Shown: piece by piece, positions 6,845-53,308 of the stretch | Layout of the letters: every line of letters begins with the position of its first letter | Position numbering within the stretch: position 1 is the stretch's first letter | Translations under genes and position numbers: made by a program | The notes under the pieces: generated by a model | Databases searched by the model: none | What the model saw: only the letters and a program-made list of their open reading frames with translations | What the model was told of the DNA's origin: nothing | From: a virus | Lineage: Duplodnaviria; Caudoviricetes | Reading direction: 5' to 3' (one strand) | Length of the DNA stretch: 64,000 nt | IMG/VR virus record: IMGVR_UViG_3300050343_000159

Positions 6845-8301
6845 ACTTTTACGCCAATGTGATTATGGTTGGAAATGATTTCCTCGTTCGTGGTTATGAA
6901 AATGGCAAAAGAGTTCAATACAGAGAAAAGTTCCAACCCACCTTGTTTGTCAAATCAAACAGGGAGAGTGAGTGGAAGACATTGGAAGGTGAGAATGTAG
7001 AGCCCATTCAACCTGGGTATGTTCGTGATTGTCGTGAGTTCTACAAGAAGTATGATGGTGTAGATGGTTTCAAGATCTATGGAAATGATCGATACATCTA
7101 CCAATACATGTCTGAGAAGTTTCCACAAGATGAAATCAAGTGGGACATGTCTAAGATTAAACTTGTTACTATTGATATTGAGGTGAAGTCAGAAGATGGA
7201 TTCCCCTCACCAGACTCTTGTTCGGAGGAGATGCTAACCATCTCTATTCAGGATTACAACACCAAGCAGATTCTTACTTGGGGACGTAAACCTTACACTC
7301 CATCACAAAAGAATGTCACATATTTCCATCATGAAGAAGAAGTGGATATGCTGAGAGCATTCATCAACTGGTGGAATGAAGATCCCCCAGAGGTTATTAC
7401 TGGATGGAACTGTAGGTTGTATGATATTCCATATCTTTGTGGTCGTGTGGATAGGATAATGGGAACCAAAGAGATGAAGAGATTGTCTCCTTGGAATATC
7501 ATTCAACACGATGAGGTATACATCAATGGTAGACCACACAATGTATACAATATTGCAGGTGTAACTACACTTGACTTTATGGATCTCTATAAGAAGTTCA
7601 CCTATGTGAACCGAGAGAGTTATCGATTAGACTTTATTGCAGAAACAGAATTGGGACAGAAGAAGTTGGACCACTCAGAGTTCAACACTTTCAAAGAGTT
7701 CTATGATGGAGACTGGAAGAAGTTTGTAGATTATAACATCGTTGACGTGGAGCTGGTTGATAGGATGGAGGATAAACTTCGTCTGATTGAACTGGTGATT
7801 ACTATGGCATTTGATGCTAAAGTGAACTTTGTTGATCCTATGTTCCAGGTTAGATTGTGGGATACAATCATCTATAACTATCTAAAGAAAAGGAATATTG
7901 TAGTTCCTCAAATGGATAGAACAGACAAGGATTCAAAGTTCGCAGGTGCATATGTTAAAGAACCGGTACCGGGAGTCTATGATTGGGTTGTCAGTTTTGA
8001 CCTTAACTCTCTCTATCCTCATCTTATCATGCAGTATAACATCTCCCCAGAAACTCTCTTGGACGAAAAACATCCAACGGCCACAGTTGATCGAATTCTT
8101 GATGAGACGGTGAACTTTGAAATGTATAAAGACAATGCAGTTTGTGCCAATGGTGCAATGTATCGTAAGGATGTAAAAGGTTTCCTACCTGAGTTGATGG
8201 AGAAGATGTATGCTGAACGTAAGGCATTCAAGGGTAAGATGTTGAAGAGTAAACAGAAACTCGTTGACATTGAAGCTGAAATGAAGAAGAGAGGTTTGTG
8301 A
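6841..8301 (+). CDS. gp43A: DNA polymerase gp43, N-terminal part (exonuclease, palm motif A, first fingers helix)
   Basis: ExoI TIDIEV, ExoII TGWNCRLYD, ExoIII YNIVD, region II SFDLNSLYPHLI; ends ...KKRGL* inside the fingers. Confidence 0.95.
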   Translation: MNFYANVIMVGNDFLVRGYENGKRVQYREKFQPTLFVKSNRESEWKTLEGENVEPIQPGYVRDCREFYKKYDGVDGFKIYGNDRYIYQYMSEKFPQDEIKWDMSKIKLVTIDIEVKSEDGFPSPDSCSEEMLTISIQDYNTKQILTWGRKPYTPSQKNVTYFHHEEEVDMLRAFINWWNEDPPEVITGWNCRLYDIPYLCGRVDRIMGTKEMKRLSPWNIIQHDEVYINGRPHNVYNIAGVTTLDFMDLYKKFTYVNRESYRLDFIAETELGQKKLDHSEFNTFKEFYDGDWKKFVDYNIVDVELVDRMEDKLRLIELVITMAFDAKVNFVDPMFQVRLWDTIIYNYLKKRNIVVPQMDRTDKDSKFAGAYVKEPVPGVYDWVVSFDLNSLYPHLIMQYNISPETLLDEKHPTATVDRILDETVNFEMYKDNAVCANGAMYRKDVKGFLPELMEKMYAERKAFKGKMLKSKQKLVDIEAEMKKRGL

Positions 8302-8564
8302 TGGAATTACCAGAGATCATCAGAAAGAATTCATTTGCTTGTTTTGGTAGTTTAAATGCTTCTGAGAGATCAGTCATCTTAATGGGTGATGATGAGTATC
8401 GTAAATCACTAGACCTTGAGAATGATGATGCTCCCTGTTGGAAGATTCCAAGTAAGGAATCAACAACATTTGTTGGATGGAATCCCCAATGTATTCCAAC
8501 AATTGATTACATAGTATGGAAACTAGAACGCCTTGAAAAAATTACTACAGGAGAAATTCACTAA
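8298..8564 (+). CDS. Hypothetical protein inside the split polymerase locus
   Basis: 88-aa ORF with 4-nt overlap on the gp43A stop. Confidence 0.65.
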   Translation: MMELPEIIRKNSFACFGSLNASERSVILMGDDEYRKSLDLENDDAPCWKIPSKESTTFVGWNPQCIPTIDYIVWKLERLEKITTGEIH

Positions 8565-8764
8565 TGGCATTATCTAATTCAGTTGAAGAGTCACTTAAAG
8601 AAGCATCTGGACATTTACGCAACGCATTATCATTTGCTGCTAGACAAGAAAGACCTGTTGTTTGTGTACAAATTTCTAAGTTGATTAGTGATATTGAAAA
8701 CATCGGTTCTTTTGATAATATTCTTGATACACTCGACAACACAATTGCGGAGATGGAAGACTAA
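8564..8764 (+). CDS. Hypothetical helical protein inside the split polymerase locus
   Basis: 66-aa ORF with TAATG overlaps at both ends. Confidence 0.65.
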   Translation: MALSNSVEESLKEASGHLRNALSFAARQERPVVCVQISKLISDIENIGSFDNILDTLDNTIAEMED

Positions 8765-9678
8765 TGGATTACAAAACTTCTGGCGTTGATATTGAAAAGG
8801 GAAAAGCATTCGTAGAACATCTTAAAATTATGGCACCTAAAATTGGTGGATTTAATGGAATGTATCCTCTTCCAAAAGGATATGAAAGACCGGTCTTGGT
8901 ATCTGGTGCTGATGGTGTCGGAACTAAGATGAATATCTGTAGGATTGCCTTTGACTACACTACAATTGGAATTGATTTAGTTGCAATGTGTGTCAATGAT
9001 GTAATCTGTAGTGGTGCTAAACCATTGTACTTCTTAGATTATATCTCTACTAAAAATATAAACTCTAGTGTCAATGAAATTGTATCTGGAATTGTCAAAG
9101 GATGTGAGATTTCTGGAATGGACCTTCTAGGTGGAGAGACTGCAGAACATTTCAGAGCAACTGATTATGACCTTGCTGGTTTTGTACTGGTATTGTAGAG
9201 AAATATGAGATTGTTAATGGTAGTAGTATCCGAGCTGGTGATGTAGTCATTGGTATTGAGAGTAGTGGTCTTCATAGTAATGGATACACTCTTATCAATG
9301 ATATGTTGAGTAAACATAAAATCTTCTATAAAGGATATGCCAGAGTTGTTAACACCAACTACAATCTATTCTCCTTTGATTCAATATCTTTTGGATCAAG
9401 TTCCTATTCTTGGTATGGCACACATCACAGGTGGTGGTATTCCCGAAAATCTTCCTAGGTGTCTCCCCGAAGGATTGAGTGCAAATGTTGATTACAATTC
9501 TTGGGAAAGACCAGAACTCTTTGATAAGATACAAAAAGCTGGTGATATCACTGAAGAGGAGATGAAAAACGTATTCAATCTTGGTATCGGATTCTGTTTG
9601 GTTGTTCCACCAGATGTGGTAGAATTGACTCAATCACTTATTAGTATGAAGTCCTGGGTCATCGGAGTAGTTGAATGA
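8764..9678 (+). CDS. purM: Phosphoribosylaminoimidazole synthetase (frameshifted in this assembly near 9180 and 9335)
   Basis: [38 protein letters not shown] in the intervening frame, AHITGGG, FNLGIG. Confidence 0.9.
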
Positions 9679-9953
9679 AGTTTAAAGCATTAGTATTCAT
9701 CCGACTACGATCACAGGTTGATGATTCGCCAGGTAATGCTGTGAGAGATTGCTGTAAAAGAATGTCTGAGTTAGACATCAAGAAACTTAGACTTGGTAAG
9801 GTCATTGATGTTTGGTTGGAAGCAGAGAGTAGAGAGTATGCTGAGAAGGAACTCGAAATGCTATCGGATAGATTTCTTGCTAATAAAGTTATGGAAGACT
9901 GGGATTATGAATTGACTGAGATTGAAAACTTTCCTAAAGGTATTGAGGAATAA
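9675..9953 (+). CDS. purS: FGAM synthetase subunit PurS
   Basis: V.D..GNAV, LRLGKVI, LAN.VME. Confidence 0.8.
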   Translation: MKFKALVFIRLRSQVDDSPGNAVRDCCKRMSELDIKKLRLGKVIDVWLEAESREYAEKELEMLSDRFLANKVMEDWDYELTEIENFPKGIEE

Positions 9954-11113
9954 TGGGATATCTAATCGGTGGTGCTGGTGAAGGTGTAGAAGAGGAGATC
10001 GTACAATCTGGTAAAGACTATTCTAAACTGTCTGATAGAGAACTTCTAAGTCTCAGGGATCAGACAGTAAAGGATGTTGCTAAGTTCAATAACTTTCAGA
10101 TGGTGAGAAAGATTTGTTTGAACTCAGCTTATGGTGCGGTTGGTAACCAATACTTCAGATACTTCAAACTTGCAAATGCAGAAGCTATCACTCTGTCAGG
10201 TCAAACATCTATCAGGTGGATTGAGGATAGGTTAAACAAGTATCTGAATGAACTCCTAAAGACTGATAGTGATTATGTTATTGCCGTTGATACTGATTCT
10301 GTATACCTTAACCTTGGTCCTCTTGTTGATAAGTTCCTAGCAAAACAGAAGGATGATAAGGAGAAGGTGGTGAACCTTTTGGATAAGGTTTGTCAAGACA
10401 AGTTAGAACCTTTTATTGACGACTGTTATGTGAAACTGGCTGACTATGTGAATGCATATGATCAGAAGATGCAGATGAAGAGAGAAAATATTGCTGATCG
10501 TGGTATTTGGACCGCCAAGAAAAGATACATTCTTAATGTGTGGGATAGTGAGGGTGTTCGTTATGAAGAACCCAAACTCAAGATCATGGGTATTGAGGCT
10601 GTCAAATCATCTACACCCGCTCCCTGTAGGAAGATGATTAAGGATGGTCTCCGAGTGATGATGGAAGGAACTGAGGATGAGATGATTAAGTTTATCGATG
10701 AGGCTAGAATTAAGTTCAATAAACTATCGGTAGCCGAGTTGTCATTTCCCCGTTCTATTTCTGATGTAAATAAACACAAGAGCCATACAACCATCTATGG
10801 AAAGGGTTGTCCTATCCATGTGAGAGGTTCGCTACTTCATAACCACTACATTAAAGAGAGAGGTTTGGATAACAAGTATTCTCTTATCAATAATGGTGAT
10901 AAGATTAAGTTTGTTTATCTTAAGAAAGCCAATCCTATTCGTGAGAATGTGATTTCATTCTTGAATGATTTCCCGTATGAACTCGGACTTGATAAGTATA
11001 TTGATTATGAGTTACAATTCAACAAAGCCTTCCTTGAACCTGTAAAGGTCATTCTTGATTCCATTGGATGGAATGTTGAGAAAGTTGCAAACCTAGAGTT
11101 ATTTTTTAGTTAA
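9953..11113 (+). CDS. gp43B: DNA polymerase gp43, C-terminal part (second fingers helix, palm motif C, thumb)
   Basis: KICLNSAYGAVG, DTDS, KKRY, IMGIEAVKSSTP, C-terminal clamp-binding LELFFS. Confidence 0.95.
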   Translation: MGYLIGGAGEGVEEEIVQSGKDYSKLSDRELLSLRDQTVKDVAKFNNFQMVRKICLNSAYGAVGNQYFRYFKLANAEAITLSGQTSIRWIEDRLNKYLNELLKTDSDYVIAVDTDSVYLNLGPLVDKFLAKQKDDKEKVVNLLDKVCQDKLEPFIDDCYVKLADYVNAYDQKMQMKRENIADRGIWTAKKRYILNVWDSEGVRYEEPKLKIMGIEAVKSSTPAPCRKMIKDGLRVMMEGTEDEMIKFIDEARIKFNKLSVAELSFPRSISDVNKHKSHTTIYGKGCPIHVRGSLLHNHYIKERGLDNKYSLINNGDKIKFVYLKKANPIRENVISFLNDFPYELGLDKYIDYELQFNKAFLEPVKVILDSIGWNVEKVANLELFFS

Positions 11114-25584: not shown

Positions 25585-27880
25585 GTAACGGTACAAAGGT
25601 TCAGAAGAGAGATGGTCGTGTTGAATCACTTGACCTGGATAAGATGCATCTTATGGTTGAAGAGGCGTGTGATGGCCTATCAAATGTGTCTGCTAGTCAG
25701 GTAGAGATGACATCTGGTATTCAGTTCTATGACGGCATTACTACTGCTGAGATCCAAGAGATTCTTATTAAGAGTGCCAGTGACCTGATTGACTTGGATC
25801 ACCCCAACTATCAGTTTGTAGCTGCAAGACTTCTTCTGTTCTCTCTTAGGAAGCAACTGTATGGTGGTAGGAGGGAGATGCCTTCCTTGATTGATCACAT
25901 CACCAAACTGGCATACGATGATCACTATGATAGAGATATCTTTACAAAGTATTCACAAGAAGAGATTGAGAAGGTAGAAACTTTTATTGATCACGATCGC
26001 GATTTTCTATTCACATATGCTGGTTTGAGGCAGGTTGTGGATAAATACCTAGTACAAGATAGGAGTGTTGGAAAGGTACACGAAACTCCTCAGTTCATGT
26101 ACATGATGATTGCATTGACAATCTTCCGTGAGTATCCAAAAGAAACAAGACTTTCCTACGTTAGAAGATACTACGATGCCATCTCAAAACACAGACTCAA
26201 CATCCCAACGCCAATCATGGCGGGTGTCAGAACTCCCCTACGCCAGTTTGCGTCTTGTGTTCTGGTTGATGTTGATGACACCCTGGATAGCATTTTTAGT
26301 TCTGATATGGCCATTGGCCGTTATGTCGCACAAAGGGCTGGCATCGGTATCAACGCTGGCAGGATCCGTGGGATCAACAGTAAAATCAGGGGCGGAGAAG
26401 TACAGCACACTGGCGTTGTTCCTTTCCTTAAAAAGTTTGAATCAACTGTACGATGCTGTACACAAAATGGGATTCGTGGTGGCTCAGCAACAGTCCACTT
26501 CCCCATCTGGCACCAAGAAATCCAAGACATCATCGTCTTAAAGAACAACAAAGGCACAGAAGACAACAGGGTACGGAAACTTGATTACTCAATCCAAATT
26601 TCAAAGATTTTCTACGAACGTTTCATTGCGAATGGAGAGATTAGCTTGTTCTCACCGCACGACGTACCGGGTCTGTATGATGCCTTTGGTACTGACGGGT
26701 TCGATGATTTATATGTTAGTTTTGAACGAGATGAGTCTGTTCCAAGAAAGAGTATTAAAGCACAAGAACTAATCCTTGATATTCTCAAAGAAAGAGCAGA
26801 GACAGGTCGTCTGTATCTGATGAATATTGACCATTGTAACTCTCACTCTTCCTTCAAAGATAAGGTTGAGATGAGTAATCTGTGTCAGGAAATCACTCTT
26901 CCTACATATCCTTTATCACATATTGATGATCAGGTTGGTGAGATTGCACTCTGTATTCTCTCAGCAGTAATGTTGGTAAGATTAAGACTGATGAGGAACT
27001 AGAAGACCTCTGTGACCTAGCTGTGAGGGGTCTAGACGAGTTGATTGACTATCAAGACTATCCAATCATCGCAGCTGAACTTGCAACTAAGGCAAGAAGG
27101 TCTCTGGGTATTGGTTACATTGGATTGGCACACTACCTGGCAAAGTTGGGTTACTCCTATGATTCACAAGAGGCATGGGATGCTGTTCATGGACTCTCTG
27201 AGTCCTTCCAGTATTACCTTCTGAAGTCTTCTAATCAGTTGGCTAAGGAGAAAGGTCACTGTGAATACTTTGGTCGCACCAAATACTCCAGTGGAACACT
27301 ACCTATCGATACATATAAGAAAGATGTAGATGAACTAGTATCAACGGAGTTGCAACATGATTGGGATATGCTTAGGAATGATATCCTCGAATACGGTCTC
27401 AGGAACTCAACACTGTCCGCACAAATGCCATCGGAAAGCAGTTCCGTTGTGTCAAACGCAACTAATGGAATCGAACCTCCTCGTGGATACTTGTCCATTA
27501 AGAAGTCCAAGAAAGGGCCTCTTAAGCAAATTGTTCCCCAGTATGCCTCATTGAAGAATAACTATACTCTTCTGTGGGATATGAAAGATAATGGTGGATA
27601 CATTAGAATAGTAGCTGTGATGCAAAAGTTCTTCGACCAGGCAATTTCTGGTAACTGGAGTTATAATCCAGAGAACTATCCTGATAATGAGGTTCCTGTT
27701 TCCCAGATGGCAAAGGATTTTCTCACAACTTATAAATATGGTTGGAAGACATCCTACTATCAGAACACTCACGACTTAAAGTCTGATGAAGTAGATGAAG
27801 AGCCGCAGTCGAAGTTAGATGAATTGTTATTAGAACTATCACAAGCCGAGGAGGGAGAGTGTGAATCCTGTGCAGTTTAA
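25581..27880 (+). CDS. nrdA: Class Ia ribonucleotide reductase alpha subunit (1-nt deletion near 26970)
   Basis: ATP cone VQKRDG, PTPIMAG, FASCVL, SNLCQEI, QMPSESSS, C-terminal CESC; frames rejoin as LSAVNVGKIKTDEELEDLC. Confidence 0.95.
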
Positions 27881-29824: not shown

Positions 29825-30418
29825 ATGAAGAAACTATTAACACCTTTACTAGCAACACTGTTGGTAGGATGTCAACAAGCCTCAACAGGAGCCAACTTGC
29901 CAGTTGATGTCACTGAAGACAATAACACAGCTGTACCTATTGAAGTTGTTCCACCAATCAAATGGACCTGTCCAACATGTACAGACAATGAAAAATATGT
30001 CCTCAAACAACTACAAGAAAAAACAAGAATCACAGATCGAAATGCCTTGGCAACGATCATGGGTAATATTAAACAAGAAAGTAAGTTCTATTCCAACATT
30101 TGCGAGGGAGGGACTAGAGTTCCTTACTCTGATTGTCATTGGGGTGGGTACGGACTCATTCAGTGGACCTCTACACAGCGTCATCTGGGGTTAGGATATT
30201 TCGCTAAAAAGTATGGATGTGATCCTAGCACTCTTGAGTGTCAGACACGTTATATGATTAACGAAAATATATTCCAACGGTACCTTCCTGAGTTTGAAGG
30301 TGGTGGACAAAGTATTGCTCAGTATATGGTTCCTTCCTACTACTGGTTAGGGTGGGGAATTAAGGGATCAAGAGAGACATATAGTCATCAATACAGATCA
30401 AAGCTAGTGAAGCCTTGA
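29825..30418 (+). CDS. Lipoprotein with phage-tail-lysozyme-like muralytic domain
   Basis: Lipobox LLVG-C; ATIMGNIKQESKF and GYGLIQWT motifs. Confidence 0.75.
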   Translation: MKKLLTPLLATLLVGCQQASTGANLPVDVTEDNNTAVPIEVVPPIKWTCPTCTDNEKYVLKQLQEKTRITDRNALATIMGNIKQESKFYSNICEGGTRVPYSDCHWGGYGLIQWTSTQRHLGLGYFAKKYGCDPSTLECQTRYMINENIFQRYLPEFEGGGQSIAQYMVPSYYWLGWGIKGSRETYSHQYRSKLVKP

Positions 30419-30443
30419 CAAGGGTAGGAACACCCTCTATAAT
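30415..30443 (+). promoter_or_regulatory. sigma70 promoter of the tRNA operon
   Basis: TTGACA 30415-30420, 17 nt, TATAAT 30438-30443. Confidence 0.85.
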
Positions 30444-30448
30444 ATAAG

Positions 30449-30511
30449 GGTTGAGAGATCAACTGCGGTGACCCCCTTGGTAGTTCAGGGTTAGCGGCGA
30501 TAGGAACTACC
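30449..30511 (+). ncRNA. Candidate structured RNA: GNRA hairpin plus H-type pseudoknot
   Basis: Hairpin 30449-30464; S1 30469-74/30488-93; S2 30479-86/30504-11 (8 WC pairs). Confidence 0.55.
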
Positions 30512-30515
30512 TCTT

Positions 30516-30588
30516 GGGTCAGTAGCTCAGTGGATAGAGCATCGCACTTCTAATGCGTTGGTCGGGGGTTCGAGTCCCTCCTGACCCG
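30516..30588 (+). tRNA. tRNA-Arg(TCT)
   Basis: Cloverleaf, AGCTCAG D-arm, TTCGAGTCC T-loop, CT-TCT-AA anticodon loop. Confidence 0.9.
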
Positions 30589-30592
30589 CCTC

Positions 30593-30666
30593 GCGGAATT
30601 AGTTTAGAGGCAAAACTAAAGGTTTCCAACCTTTCGTCACCGGTTCGATTCCGGTATTCCGCTCCA
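30593..30666 (+). tRNA. tRNA-Gly(TCC) with encoded CCA
   Basis: GCGGAAT/ATTCCGC acceptor stem, TT-TCC-AA loop, TTCGATTCC. Confidence 0.9.
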
Positions 30667-30667
30667 A

Positions 30668-30739
30668 TCCTCTATAGCTCAGTTGGTAGAGCTCGTGACT
30701 GTTAATTTCGCTGTCCTAGGTTCGAGTCCTAGTGGGGAG
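30668..30739 (+). tRNA. tRNA-Asn(GTT)
   Basis: TCCTCTA acceptor, CT-GTT-AA loop, GGTTCGAGTCC; weak anticodon stem may reflect sequence error. Confidence 0.85.
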
Positions 30740-30742
30740 TTA

Positions 30743-30814
30743 GCTCGAATAGCTCAGCGGTAGAGCACCTCCTTTACACGGAGATTGTCGGGGGTTCGAT
30801 CCCCTCTTCGAGCA
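30743..30814 (+). tRNA. tRNA-Val(TAC)
   Basis: GCTCGAA/TTCGAGC acceptor, TT-TAC-AC loop, GTTCGATCCC. Confidence 0.9.
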
Positions 30815-31044
30815 TTTGTATTTTCTATCATGCAACGATTGCCAGAGATCAAACCCGAACATTATGTTACTGAGAAACAGTGTCAGGAAATGATCGATAA
30901 AGCCATCGATAAACATAACAAAACAGCAACACTTATCAGTGCAAGTATCGGTCAGTGTTGTTGTTTTTCTATGCACAAGGGTTGCTAATTGTAATCGGTT
31001 TGTGGAAATAATATTGTAATAAATAAACCAACTACAACAGACTG

Positions 31045-31215
31045 ATGGAAGTTTTTTCTGTAGAAGAATTTCAAGAACGATGGGACGAACTAATAACTAG
31101 AGTGGAAAAGGGGGAGACGTTAGGAGTAGTGAATGAGAACGGGAATGCAGCTGTGATGGTTCCAGTTGATGATCCAGTATACAAGATGTATTGTGATCAC
31201 AACGAGGCCAGTTAA
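31045..31215 (+). CDS. Phd/YefM antitoxin-like small protein (not in the ORF track)
   Basis: MEVFSVEEFQERWDELITRVEKGETLGVVNENGNAAVMVP follows the Phd/YefM N-terminal pattern. Confidence 0.55.
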   Translation: MEVFSVEEFQERWDELITRVEKGETLGVVNENGNAAVMVPVDDPVYKMYCDHNEAS

Positions 31216-32268: not shown

Positions 32269-33321
32269 ATGGCACAATATATTAAAAAGGCACTTGTTCT
32301 AGGTGCTGGTGGATTCATTGGTTCTCATATGGTCAAGAGACTTAAGTCTGAAGGCTACTGGGTTCGTGGTGTTGATCTTAAAGCCCCTGAGTTCTCTAAA
32401 CTGAAGCAGATGAATTCGTTCATGGTGATTTGAGAGATGCATTTTGTAAAACGTTGTTTGAATATAAGGGAGACAGGGGAAACTTTCTATAACTCTGTTC
32501 CCTATCGATACATTCAATCCTTTGATGAGATTTATCAGTTTGCAGCTGATATGGGTGGAGCAGGGTTTGTATTCTCAGGTGAGAATGATGCAGATATCAT
32601 GCACAACTCTGTGAGTATCAACCTCAATGTTCTAGAAGAACAGAGAAAGAGAAACGAAGCTACTGGTAGAAATTATACCAAGATCTTCTACTCTGGATCT
32701 GCTTGCATGTATCCAGAACATAATCAATTAGATCCTGACAACCCAGATTGTAGTGAAGACTCAGCATACCCAGCAAACCCAGACTCCGAATACGGATGGG
32801 AGAAGCTCTTCTCCGAGCGTCTGTACTTTGCTTATCATCGTAATCACGGCATCCCTGTTCGGGTTACTCGATATCATAACATCTTCGGACCAGAAGGAAC
32901 CTGGGATGGTGGTAGAGAGAAAGCCCCAGCAGCCATCTGTAGAAAGGTAGCACAACTACCTCCTGTTGGTGGTCACATTGAAGTGTGGGGTGATGGTGAA
33001 CAGACACGTTCATTCCTTTATATTGATGAGTGTATTGAAGCCTCCCGTCGTTTGATGGATAGTGAATTTATTGGTCCTGTGAATATTGGTTCAGAGGAAA
33101 TGGTAACTATCAATCAACTAACTGATATCGCTTCTAAGGTAGCAGGTAAACCTATTAAGAGAAATCATAAAATGGATGCACCTCTTGGTGTTCGTGGTAG
33201 GAATAGTAACAATGATGTAGTCCGTCGTGAGTTAGGATGGGACTACGAACAACCCCTTGAAGAAGGGATTCGTAAAACTTATGAATGGATTGAGGCAAGA
33301 GTCAATGAACAGAATCAATGA
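32269..33321 (+). CDS. NAD-dependent nucleotide-sugar epimerase (GDP-mannose 3,5-epimerase-like; frameshifts ~32400-32470)
   Basis: GAGGFIGSH at 32300; AADMGG, SGSACMYP, YGWEK, RYHNIFGP, WGDGEQTRSF. Confidence 0.88.
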
Positions 33322-34051
33322 TTATAATCAACTCAAGGATGATATTTCTTCTTGGTTGAGTGAATATAAAGATACAAGTTCATCTGAATGTTTTGTAGTT
33401 GGTGTGTCTGGTGGTATTGATTCTGCCGTATCATCAACTCTAGCAGCTGAAACTGGATACCCTGTGTATGCTATAGGGATGCCTATTCATCAAAATGAAC
33501 AACAGAAAGAACTTTCTGAGACACATCTTGATTGGTTGGAAAGGATTTATCCAAATGTGGTTGTATTGAGATATGATCTCACTAATACATTTGAATCTTT
33601 TCGTTATACTATTGGTGTTGACAGTACCAATGTGGACAATCATTCCTTAGCGAATACACGTTCACGACTTCGTATGGTTACTCTGTATCAGATTGCGGGA
33701 AGACATAAAGGTCTTGTGGTTGGAACTGGTAACAAAGTCGAAGATTATGGTGTAGGATTCTACACTAAATATGGTGACGGCGGGGTGGATGTTGCACCTA
33801 TCGCTGATCTTTATAAGACTGAAGTATGGGAACTTGGTAAATTCTTGGGAGTTGACTCAAGGATTGTTGAAGCTAAACCAACTGACGGATTATGGGATGA
33901 TGGACGAACAGATGAGGATCAACTTGGTGCCTCCTATGCTGAACTAGAAGAAGCAATGGAGACTGGTAGTGGTCCTGGTTTGGAAGTTCTACAAAGGTTC
34001 AATAAAATGAACCAACACAAGATGCAACCTATTCCTACATTTACACTATGA
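33257..34051 (+). CDS. nadE: NH3-dependent NAD+ synthetase (start probably 33305)
   Basis: GVSGGIDSAV, NTRSRLRM, GTGNKVE, GFYTKYGDG, PTDGLW, TDEDQLG. Confidence 0.92.
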   Translation: MKKGFVKLMNGLRQESMNRINDYNQLKDDISSWLSEYKDTSSSECFVVGVSGGIDSAVSSTLAAETGYPVYAIGMPIHQNEQQKELSETHLDWLERIYPNVVVLRYDLTNTFESFRYTIGVDSTNVDNHSLANTRSRLRMVTLYQIAGRHKGLVVGTGNKVEDYGVGFYTKYGDGGVDVAPIADLYKTEVWELGKFLGVDSRIVEAKPTDGLWDDGRTDEDQLGASYAELEEAMETGSGPGLEVLQRFNKMNQHKMQPIPTFTL

Positions 34052-52860: not shown

Positions 52861-53197
52861 AGGTAAAATGTTGAAGTATGAAATGGAATCTCATCTTTAT
52901 AGGTTAAAGAATGAACTACACAGTAGGTCAGGAGTTGTGTGAATCTAAAGGTCTAGCTGATGAGTATCTCAATAGGGTCTTAGATAAACTTCAAGAGTTT
53001 AGATACTAAGCTAAGCCCAACCTTTATCGGTAACAAACCTATTGTAGTCAAAACCAATACCCTTGTTAAGTACCAGTTCTCTAAGTGGAACACCAACTTA
53101 ACAGGGGTATTTCTTTGTGGTATGATAACAGGGTAAACAAAACTTTACATAAATAAACCAGTTACTTGTGTTGGTTTCAACATAAGTGTTTATACTT

Positions 53198-53308
53198 ACT
53201 CCCCTTAAACCAAGACCTATAGGGAGTCTAAAAACGTCTTTAATACCTGTATCTAAGGGTGATACAGGAATAGTAAAACCATCATTTCCCTGATGATCTT
53301 ACTTTTAA
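53198..53308 (+). ncRNA. PhotoRC-II-like cis-regulatory RNA in the psbA 5' UTR
   Basis: Hairpins CCTGTATC/GATACAGG and CATCA/TGATG directly before psbA; matches my recollection of the cyanophage psbA leader motif. Confidence 0.65.

What the first reader, a model, noticed from the sequence alone, without database searches (positions are those of the whole stretch)
30449..30511. H-type pseudoknot RNA at the head of the tRNA operon
Seen: starting at the predicted TSS, a GAGA-tetraloop hairpin, then a classic pseudoknot (S1 6 bp, L1 4 nt, S2 8 WC bp, L2 1 nt, L3 10 nt) ending 4 nt before tRNA-Arg. Established: RNase P cleavage of the pre-tRNA would release it as a discrete ~65-nt RNA; type III antitoxins (ToxI) are small H-type pseudoknots, and some phages make mimics of them. 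Inference: an abundant early phage sRNA acting as an antitoxin or nuclease decoy, or an exonuclease barrier protecting the tRNA transcript. I cannot assign it to a known family.
Basis: partly seen in the sequence, partly recalled or inferred. Interest (0 to 1): 0.65.

Follow-up and report, generated by a model that had tools for sequence, protein, structure and literature searches.

The report
Promoter-anchored pseudoknot RNA of cyanophages
Many viruses of ocean cyanobacteria carry, usually once per genome, a small knotted RNA that is in no RNA catalogue I could search; it always begins with the first letter of an early transcript, can wrap other folded RNAs inside one of its loops, and probably works as a long-lived decoy for a host protein, though its job is untested.

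Summary
The pseudoknot is real. Alone it is no more than chance (z -0.3; about one such knot per shuffled 64 kb), but over 400 distinct homologous contexts in cyanomyophages (S-SM2, P-SSM2, S-SKS1, ACG-2014f and metagenomes) keep all helices with compensatory changes. It is not in Rfam 15 or the papers searched. Corrections: it starts at 30450; the 5' hairpin is part of the fold; S1 extends by two pairs, so L3 is 7 nt. The first base is a G at predicted +1 of a sigma70 promoter (254/280; control about 5%) and pairs with the base of the knot even across loops of up to about 260 nt that hold ORF parts, a whole manA RNA or other uncatalogued RNA modules. Downstream lies a tRNA (134/318), one of 25 unrelated ORF families (141) or a new promoter (21). 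A sister phage lacks it cleanly. So it is a portable, accessory RNA, not a tRNA part and not a type III antitoxin (no repeats; no ToxN found in 301 cyanobacteria). Best guess: stable trans-acting decoy (0.45); rival: 5'-end shield (0.22). No expression data obtained. The scan noted this family before in other genomes.

The parts
30415..30443 (+). sigma70-type early promoter, perfect -35 and -10 hexamers, 17-nt spacer
   Evidence: 12/12; a strong promoter is found within 320 nt upstream in 280 of 287 homologous contexts
30450..30463 (+). P0 stem, 5 bp; G30450 is the predicted +1 base and pairs with C30463; loop variable from 4 to about 260 nt in homologues
30464..30468 (+). conserved linker U, G and P1a 5' strand (C30466-G30496, G30467-C30495) with G30468.G30494 mismatch
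   Evidence: G-C 24, U-A 65, U.G 18 at the second pair in subfamily 2
30469..30474 (+).
30475..30478 (+). L1, near-invariant pyrimidine loop; inferred third strand of a major-groove triple helix on purines 30503-30506
   Evidence: invariance; triplex is inference from the parallel pyrimidine/purine match and from variation starting at the next pair
30479..30487 (+).
30488..30496 (+). P1b and P1a 3' strands
30497..30503 (+). L3, 7 nt, five positions near-invariant
   Evidence: pattern left part of it free
30504..30511 (+). P2 3' strand
30512..30515 (+). 4-nt tail up to the expected RNase P site; 3-4 nt in 116 of 134 tRNA-linked homologues
30516..30814 (+). co-transcribed tRNA-Arg(UCU), Gly(UCC), Asn(GUU), Val(UAC); neighbours, not part of the RNA family

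Best explanation
An accessory non-coding RNA gene of T4-like cyanophages that acts in trans. Shown: a conserved three-helix fold (5' stem P0 stacked on an H-type pseudoknot), always starting with a paired G at the position of +1, usually one copy per genome, movable between unrelated loci, absent from many relatives. Inferred: host RNA polymerase makes it early and abundantly; the blunt, paired 5' triphosphate end resists 5'-end-dependent decay and the pseudoknot stops 3' exonucleases after RNase P (or RNase E in ORF leaders) cuts downstream, so a stable RNA of about 66 nt, or a longer one with nested modules in the P0 loop, accumulates; its roughly 20 near-invariant bases (linker, L1 triplex, L2, L3, G1-C14) form a surface that binds and titrates a conserved host RNA-binding protein such as a nuclease or defence sensor. 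The target is unknown.
For: Independent of what follows: tRNA-Arg 99, tRNA-Pro 35, ORFs of 25 unrelated clusters 141 (gp32, purM, Phd-like, methyltransferase and others), a fresh promoter 21. One strong copy in each of 5 complete genomes at different loci. Clean absence in sister phage RN05-S and 9 other cyanophages, as for accessory host-interaction genes. No co-occurring phage gene, so a partner would be host-made or core. Loops are more conserved than stems, across Prochlorococcus and Synechococcus phages. It sits among other short, shuffled RNA modules. Paired 5' ends block RppH and RNase E entry (PMC3997798).
Against: It almost never has its own terminator (6 or more U in the next 8 nt in 17 of 318), so release depends on processing that is obvious only before tRNAs. 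P0 loops with parts of ORFs are awkward for a compact decoy. All features are also compatible with a cis role.
Confidence: 0.45

Rival explanations
1. A cis-acting 5'-end shield or clasp: the knot docks the transcript's own first base and so stabilises whatever lies downstream or is nested in the P0 loop (mRNA, pre-tRNA, manA and other modules).
For: Strict +1 register, with G 265/280 against 42% at other promoters in the same loci; +1 pairing kept over 100-260 nt in about 26 contexts; no terminator; ORFs follow at 15-20 nt of AU-rich leader; RNase E is active on transcripts in infected Prochlorococcus (PMC3113571).
Against: A plain hairpin suffices for 5' protection (PMC3997798), so the invariant core is unexplained; one copy per genome; tRNAs are cut off and 21 contexts have their own downstream promoter; most P0 loops are empty (224 of 399 span 20 nt or less).
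Confidence: 0.22
2. A put-like nascent RNA that binds host RNA polymerase and suppresses pausing and termination in the early operon it heads.
For: About 65 nt, directly behind an early promoter, indifferent to downstream content, never terminated; HK022 putL has this position, size and a short triplex (PMC9378689).
Against: put is two stem-loops without a pseudoknot and putR works 270 nt from the start, so +1 is not needed; this element moves between unrelated operons and is lost without operon change in RN05-S.
Confidence: 0.1
3. A riboswitch-like aptamer that senses a small molecule in a triple-helix pocket.
For: H-type knot with pyrimidine L1 and invariant junction bases resembles SAM-II or preQ1-II pockets (own knowledge); some copies precede purM or purH-like genes and follow manA, itself a riboswitch candidate (PMC2864571).
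Against: No common function downstream; 42% precede tRNAs; no terminator or ribosome-binding-site overlap; no Rfam riboswitch match at E up to 10.
Confidence: 0.07
4. A ribozyme that acts on its own 5' triphosphate (self-capping, pyrophosphate release or ligation to the 3' end left by RNase P).
For: G1-C14 never covaries (210/210, partly by my parser) and lies next to the invariant linker and L3 bases; the register to the promoter is exact.
Against: No natural precedent known to me; no likeness to hammerhead, HDV-like, twister, pistol or hatchet cores in Rfam; G and a paired end are also explained by initiation preference and stability.
Confidence: 0.05
5. A type III antitoxin mimic.
For: Small H-type pseudoknot with predicted triples in a phage; pseudo-ToxI precedent (PMC3475682).
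Against: No 34-36-nt tandem repeats, no A-rich single-stranded tails, 5' end is paired; no ToxN in 301 cyanobacterial genomes (no positive control rang).
Confidence: 0.03

Closest known systems
manA (RF01745), wcaG (RF01761) and PhotoRC-II (RF01717) RNA motifs of T4-like cyanophages (Weinberg et al. 2010, PMC2864571)
   Same: Structured, covarying RNAs of unknown function in the same phages, near the 5' end of early transcripts, with variable downstream genes; manA is found physically inside this RNA's P0 loop (L693, L696).
   Different: No sequence or structure match; this RNA is anchored to +1 and encloses other modules.
T4 RNAC and RNAD (species 1 and 2 stable RNAs)
   Same: Phage small RNAs of unknown function (PMC9697503); from memory, they lie in the tRNA cluster and are released by tRNA processing.
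   Different: They are late RNAs and, from memory, about twice as long; this one has an early promoter and in most contexts no tRNA. Sequence comparison not done.
ToxI, CptI antitoxins and phiTE pseudo-ToxI (PMC5086642, PMC3475682)
   Same: Small H-type pseudoknot; possible decoy logic.
   Different: No repeats, no toxin-cut monomers with single-stranded tails, no toxin gene nearby or ToxN in hosts searched, extra 5' stem.
HK022 putL/putR (PMC9378689)
   Same: Size, place behind an early promoter, triple helix.
   Different: No pseudoknot in put; put need not start at +1; polymerase binding untested here.
PeSL cassettes of T4-type phages (PMC2839356)
   Same: Mobile promoter-plus-structure unit in variable genome regions; promoter homology could explain how this RNA moves.
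   Different: PeSLs are repeated many times and their stem-loops are terminators in varying positions, often overlapping the promoter; this element is single-copy, transcribed, pseudoknotted and fixed at +1.

Membership tests
Any Rfam 15 family | Covariance-model score at or near gathering threshold | tested here: not met
   Searches (window; P-SSM2 copy): only chance hits at E 5.8-7.1
Type III antitoxin / pseudo-ToxI | H-type pseudoknot fold | tested here: met
Type III antitoxin / pseudo-ToxI | Tandem repeats of 34-36 nt or more, cut into monomers | tested here: not met
   one copy in the window and per genome
Type III antitoxin / pseudo-ToxI | Cognate toxin adjacent or in the host | tested here: not met
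   flanking ORFs are lysozyme, GIY-YIG, Phd-like; PF13958 over cut-off in 0 of 301 cyanobacterial genomes (CptN and TenpN not searched, no positive control)
Type III antitoxin / pseudo-ToxI | Neutralises the toxin | not testable with these tools
   needs an assay
put antiterminator RNAs | Two stem-loops, no pseudoknot | tested here: not met
   fold here is stem plus pseudoknot
put antiterminator RNAs | Lies behind an early promoter | tested here: met
put antiterminator RNAs | Binds RNA polymerase and suppresses termination | not testable with these tools
   needs in vitro transcription
Riboswitch | Consistent downstream gene function and an expression platform | tested here: not met
PeSL cassette | Many copies per genome; stem-loop acts as terminator | tested here: not met
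T4 RNAC/RNAD-like stable RNAs of tRNA clusters | Accumulates as a discrete stable RNA | not testable with these tools
T4 RNAC/RNAD-like stable RNAs of tRNA clusters | Encoded directly beside tRNA genes | tested here: inconclusive
   true here and in 134 of 318 contexts, not in the rest
T4 gene 32 operator pseudoknot | Always upstream of gp32 | tested here: not met
   7 of 318 contexts precede gp32

The most novel reading that the evidence does not exclude
The knot binds the transcript's own 5'-triphosphate G as a self-folded RNA cap (possibly altering it chemically) and serves as the outer clasp of nested arrays of independent RNA modules, a phage host-takeover island built of RNA rather than proteins.
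Probability: 0.15. Interest if true: 0.9.

Novelty: new variant of a known kind. Interest (0 to 1): 0.62.

Why it matters
Cyanophages are among the most abundant viruses in the sea, and only four or five of their structured RNAs are catalogued. A fold that needs the transcript's first nucleotide and carries other RNAs in its loop would be an unusual design; if the modules are decoys, they would extend RNA-based counter-defence beyond pseudo-ToxI and point to unknown host targets.

Tried and rejected
Single-sequence folding gave no signal. Rfam at E up to 10: nothing; nested modules also not in Rfam apart from manA. Literature: core motif strings in no searchable paper; the Fremin 2023 catalogue of 10,006 viral candidate RNAs (PMC10690425) has no supplement held, so the family may be listed there unnamed. 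The genome-contig scan used too loose a pattern and returned chance hits only, so bacteria at large are untested; in cyanobacteria, 151 genomes by model and 401 by pattern gave only coding or low-scoring hits. KVP40 and A511, a lead from an earlier scan note, have no match. Partner-gene search: pstS was the only real gene present in all three other positive genomes and missing in RN05-S and S-CAM9, but it occurs in element-free phages such as Sf-CH1a and has no hit in this window: rejected. Three viral hits with the L3 string in a longer context (L025, L035, L094) look like chance matches within coding sequence. HDV-like/theta, pistol, twister, fluoride, glutamine-I/II and guanidine-III folds were compared by eye from memory: strand order does not fit. 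Caveats: my first patterns fixed parts of the core, which made pair 34-58 look invariant until; counts of modules near the core are biased because loci were fetched on the core; the P0 pairs were chosen by a parser (one search is the unbiased test).

Full report
Setting. The window is part of a large T4-like cyanophage: primase, nrdAB, four tRNAs, sugar-modifying genes, psbA with a PhotoRC-II RNA. Its NrdB is closest to Synechococcus phage RN05-S (86.7%) and Bellamy (83.6%). The element lies between a lysozyme-like ORF (29825-30418) and tRNA-Arg(UCU), behind a perfect sigma70 promoter.

Observation. One sequence does not prove them: z -0.30, and shuffled 64-kb strands hold 0-4 knots of this geometry. 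Homologues do. BLAST finds the element, unannotated, in S-SM2, P-SSM2, P-SSM5, S-SKS1, ACG-2014f, Bellamy, S-B05, S-B43, RB11-B, S-SCSM2R and SynMITS9220M01. In 76 aligned sequences 99.7% of cells pair and 12 of 17 pairs change on both sides. With an APC-corrected G-test and a tree-based null, the ten best column pairs are all predicted pairs and seven exceed every null value. In a set chosen by sequence only, 105 of 105 have six S1 pairs and 102 have four outer S2 pairs. A second subfamily (107 contexts) swaps two further pairs, G18-C46 to U-A or U.G and G34-C58 to U-A.

Refined anatomy (numbering from 30450). P0 1-5/10-14; U15, G16; P1a 17-18/46-47; G19.G45; P1b 20-25/39-44; L1 26-29; P2 30-37/55-62; A38; L3 48-54. 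Stems vary freely, while L1, A38, most of L3, the linker and the three inner P2 pairs barely vary. L1 pyrimidines match purines 54-57 in parallel, and variation resumes at pair 34-58, just beyond their reach; I infer a major-groove triple helix as in SAM-II-type knots (own knowledge, not modelled).

The +1 anchor. Taking the nearest strong promoter without assuming anything about the start, the partner of C14 begins exactly 6 nt after the -10 hexamer in 254 of 280 contexts (control about 5%), and that base is G in 265; at 182 other promoters in the same loci that position is the purine-rich initiator but is G in 42% and starts a 5-bp hairpin in 18%. So the first transcribed base is part of the fold. 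The P0 loop is free: 224 of 399 span 20 nt or less, 28 exceed 100 nt (two of these are mis-picks). Long loops hold ORF parts (L074, L093, RB11-B), a whole manA RNA (L693, L696), or uncatalogued modules that are themselves nested, such as module B (25 contexts, with compensatory changes by eye) whose own loop carries a third module. Other modules follow downstream, and module A also stands alone before psbA leaders.

Context. Of 318 contexts, 134 are followed within a few bases by tRNA-Arg(UCU) or tRNA-Pro(UGG), 141 by ORFs of 25 clusters, mostly 15-20 nt away, and 21 by a new promoter. A U-tract after P2 is rare (17/318). Five complete genomes hold one copy each at different loci; one contig has two (L058). 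Ten other cyanophages have none. RN05-S shares the upstream ORF and tRNA-Arg with RB11-B but has a promoter and an 8-nt leader in place of the element, so tRNA production does not need it. It was not found in the cyanobacterial genomes searched, nor in KVP40 or A511, and no phage gene tracks with it.

Mechanism. Shown: fold, register, mobility, dispensability. Established: RNase P would free the leader with a 4-nt tail; paired 5' ends resist RppH and RNase E entry (PMC3997798); RNase E shapes transcript survival in infected Prochlorococcus (PMC3113571). Inferred: a single-copy unit that moves between unrelated loci and keeps an invariant surface behaves like a gene, so I favour a stable trans-acting RNA that titrates a conserved host protein (0.45). 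A cis 5' shield (0.22) explains the +1 rule and the missing terminator but not the invariant core or the single copy. A put-like polymerase modifier (0.10), an aptamer (0.07), a ribozyme acting on its own triphosphate (0.05) and a type III antitoxin mimic (0.03) are weaker. No expression evidence was obtained.

Comparison. It works perhaps like pseudo-ToxI (decoy) but fails membership: no repeats, no toxin nearby or ToxN in 301 cyanobacteria (PMC5086642, PMC3475682). It shares position and size with putL but not the fold. It is not a PeSL or a gene 32 operator. Its nearest kind is the set of orphan cyanophage RNAs (manA, wcaG, PhotoRC-II) and T4 RNAC/RNAD.

Verdict. A real, abundant, uncatalogued RNA family with an unusual +1-docked, cargo-carrying design; function unknown in print as far as searched, with the Fremin catalogue unchecked. 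Earlier notes of this scan describe what appears to be the same family and its nested modules in other genomes; I read them after my own analysis and do not count them as support. Novelty: new variant of a known kind. Interest 0.62.

Noticed in passing
L749:4545-4715 (+); also L752, L773, L784, L816, L817, L828, L835: Uncatalogued multi-stem RNA module B inside the P0 loop, with compensatory changes and a variable loop that carries different third modules; no Rfam hit.
   Followed up: partly
L354:240-300 (+); L698-L723: Uncatalogued pseudoknot-like module A, found inside the P0 loop or directly before the psbA leader.
   Followed up: partly
L693:6568-6753 (-); L696:545-733 (+): A complete manA RNA enclosed by P0, with the element then leading into gp32 over an A-rich unstructured leader like the T4 gene 32 operator; the promoter looks like a combined early/late promoter.
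   Followed up: partly
L728, L730, L734, L764, L786 downstream of the element: Several further short conserved non-coding modules (H-K) follow the element in place of ORFs or tRNAs.
   Followed up: no
L001, L006, L023, L110 just downstream of the element: A palindromic hairpin precedes the second promoter; resembles a recurring cyanophage early-promoter motif.
   Followed up: no
window 31045-31215: Small orphan Phd/YefM-like antitoxin ORF after the tRNAs (Pfam E 8e-5, below cut-off; a homologue hits phrog_375), with no toxin seen; conserved in relatives.
   Followed up: partly
window 33257-34051: NAD synthetase (nadE) inside the sugar-modification gene cluster.
   Followed up: no
window 26987-27023 and 8259-11113: nrdA and DNA polymerase appear split or interrupted relative to RB11-B (two nrdA ORFs; polymerase match stops at 8259); could be assembly frameshifts or insertions.
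   Followed up: no
window 30830-30988: The small ORF after tRNA-Val seems to change frame near 30950 relative to its likely reading; possibly a sequencing error.
   Followed up: no
window 53187-53281: PhotoRC-II RNA upstream of psbA (Rfam, 71 bits).
   Followed up: no
window 49517: A second sequence fitting the pseudoknot descriptor, at the end of an ORF; no match to the family model; probably chance.
   Followed up: partly
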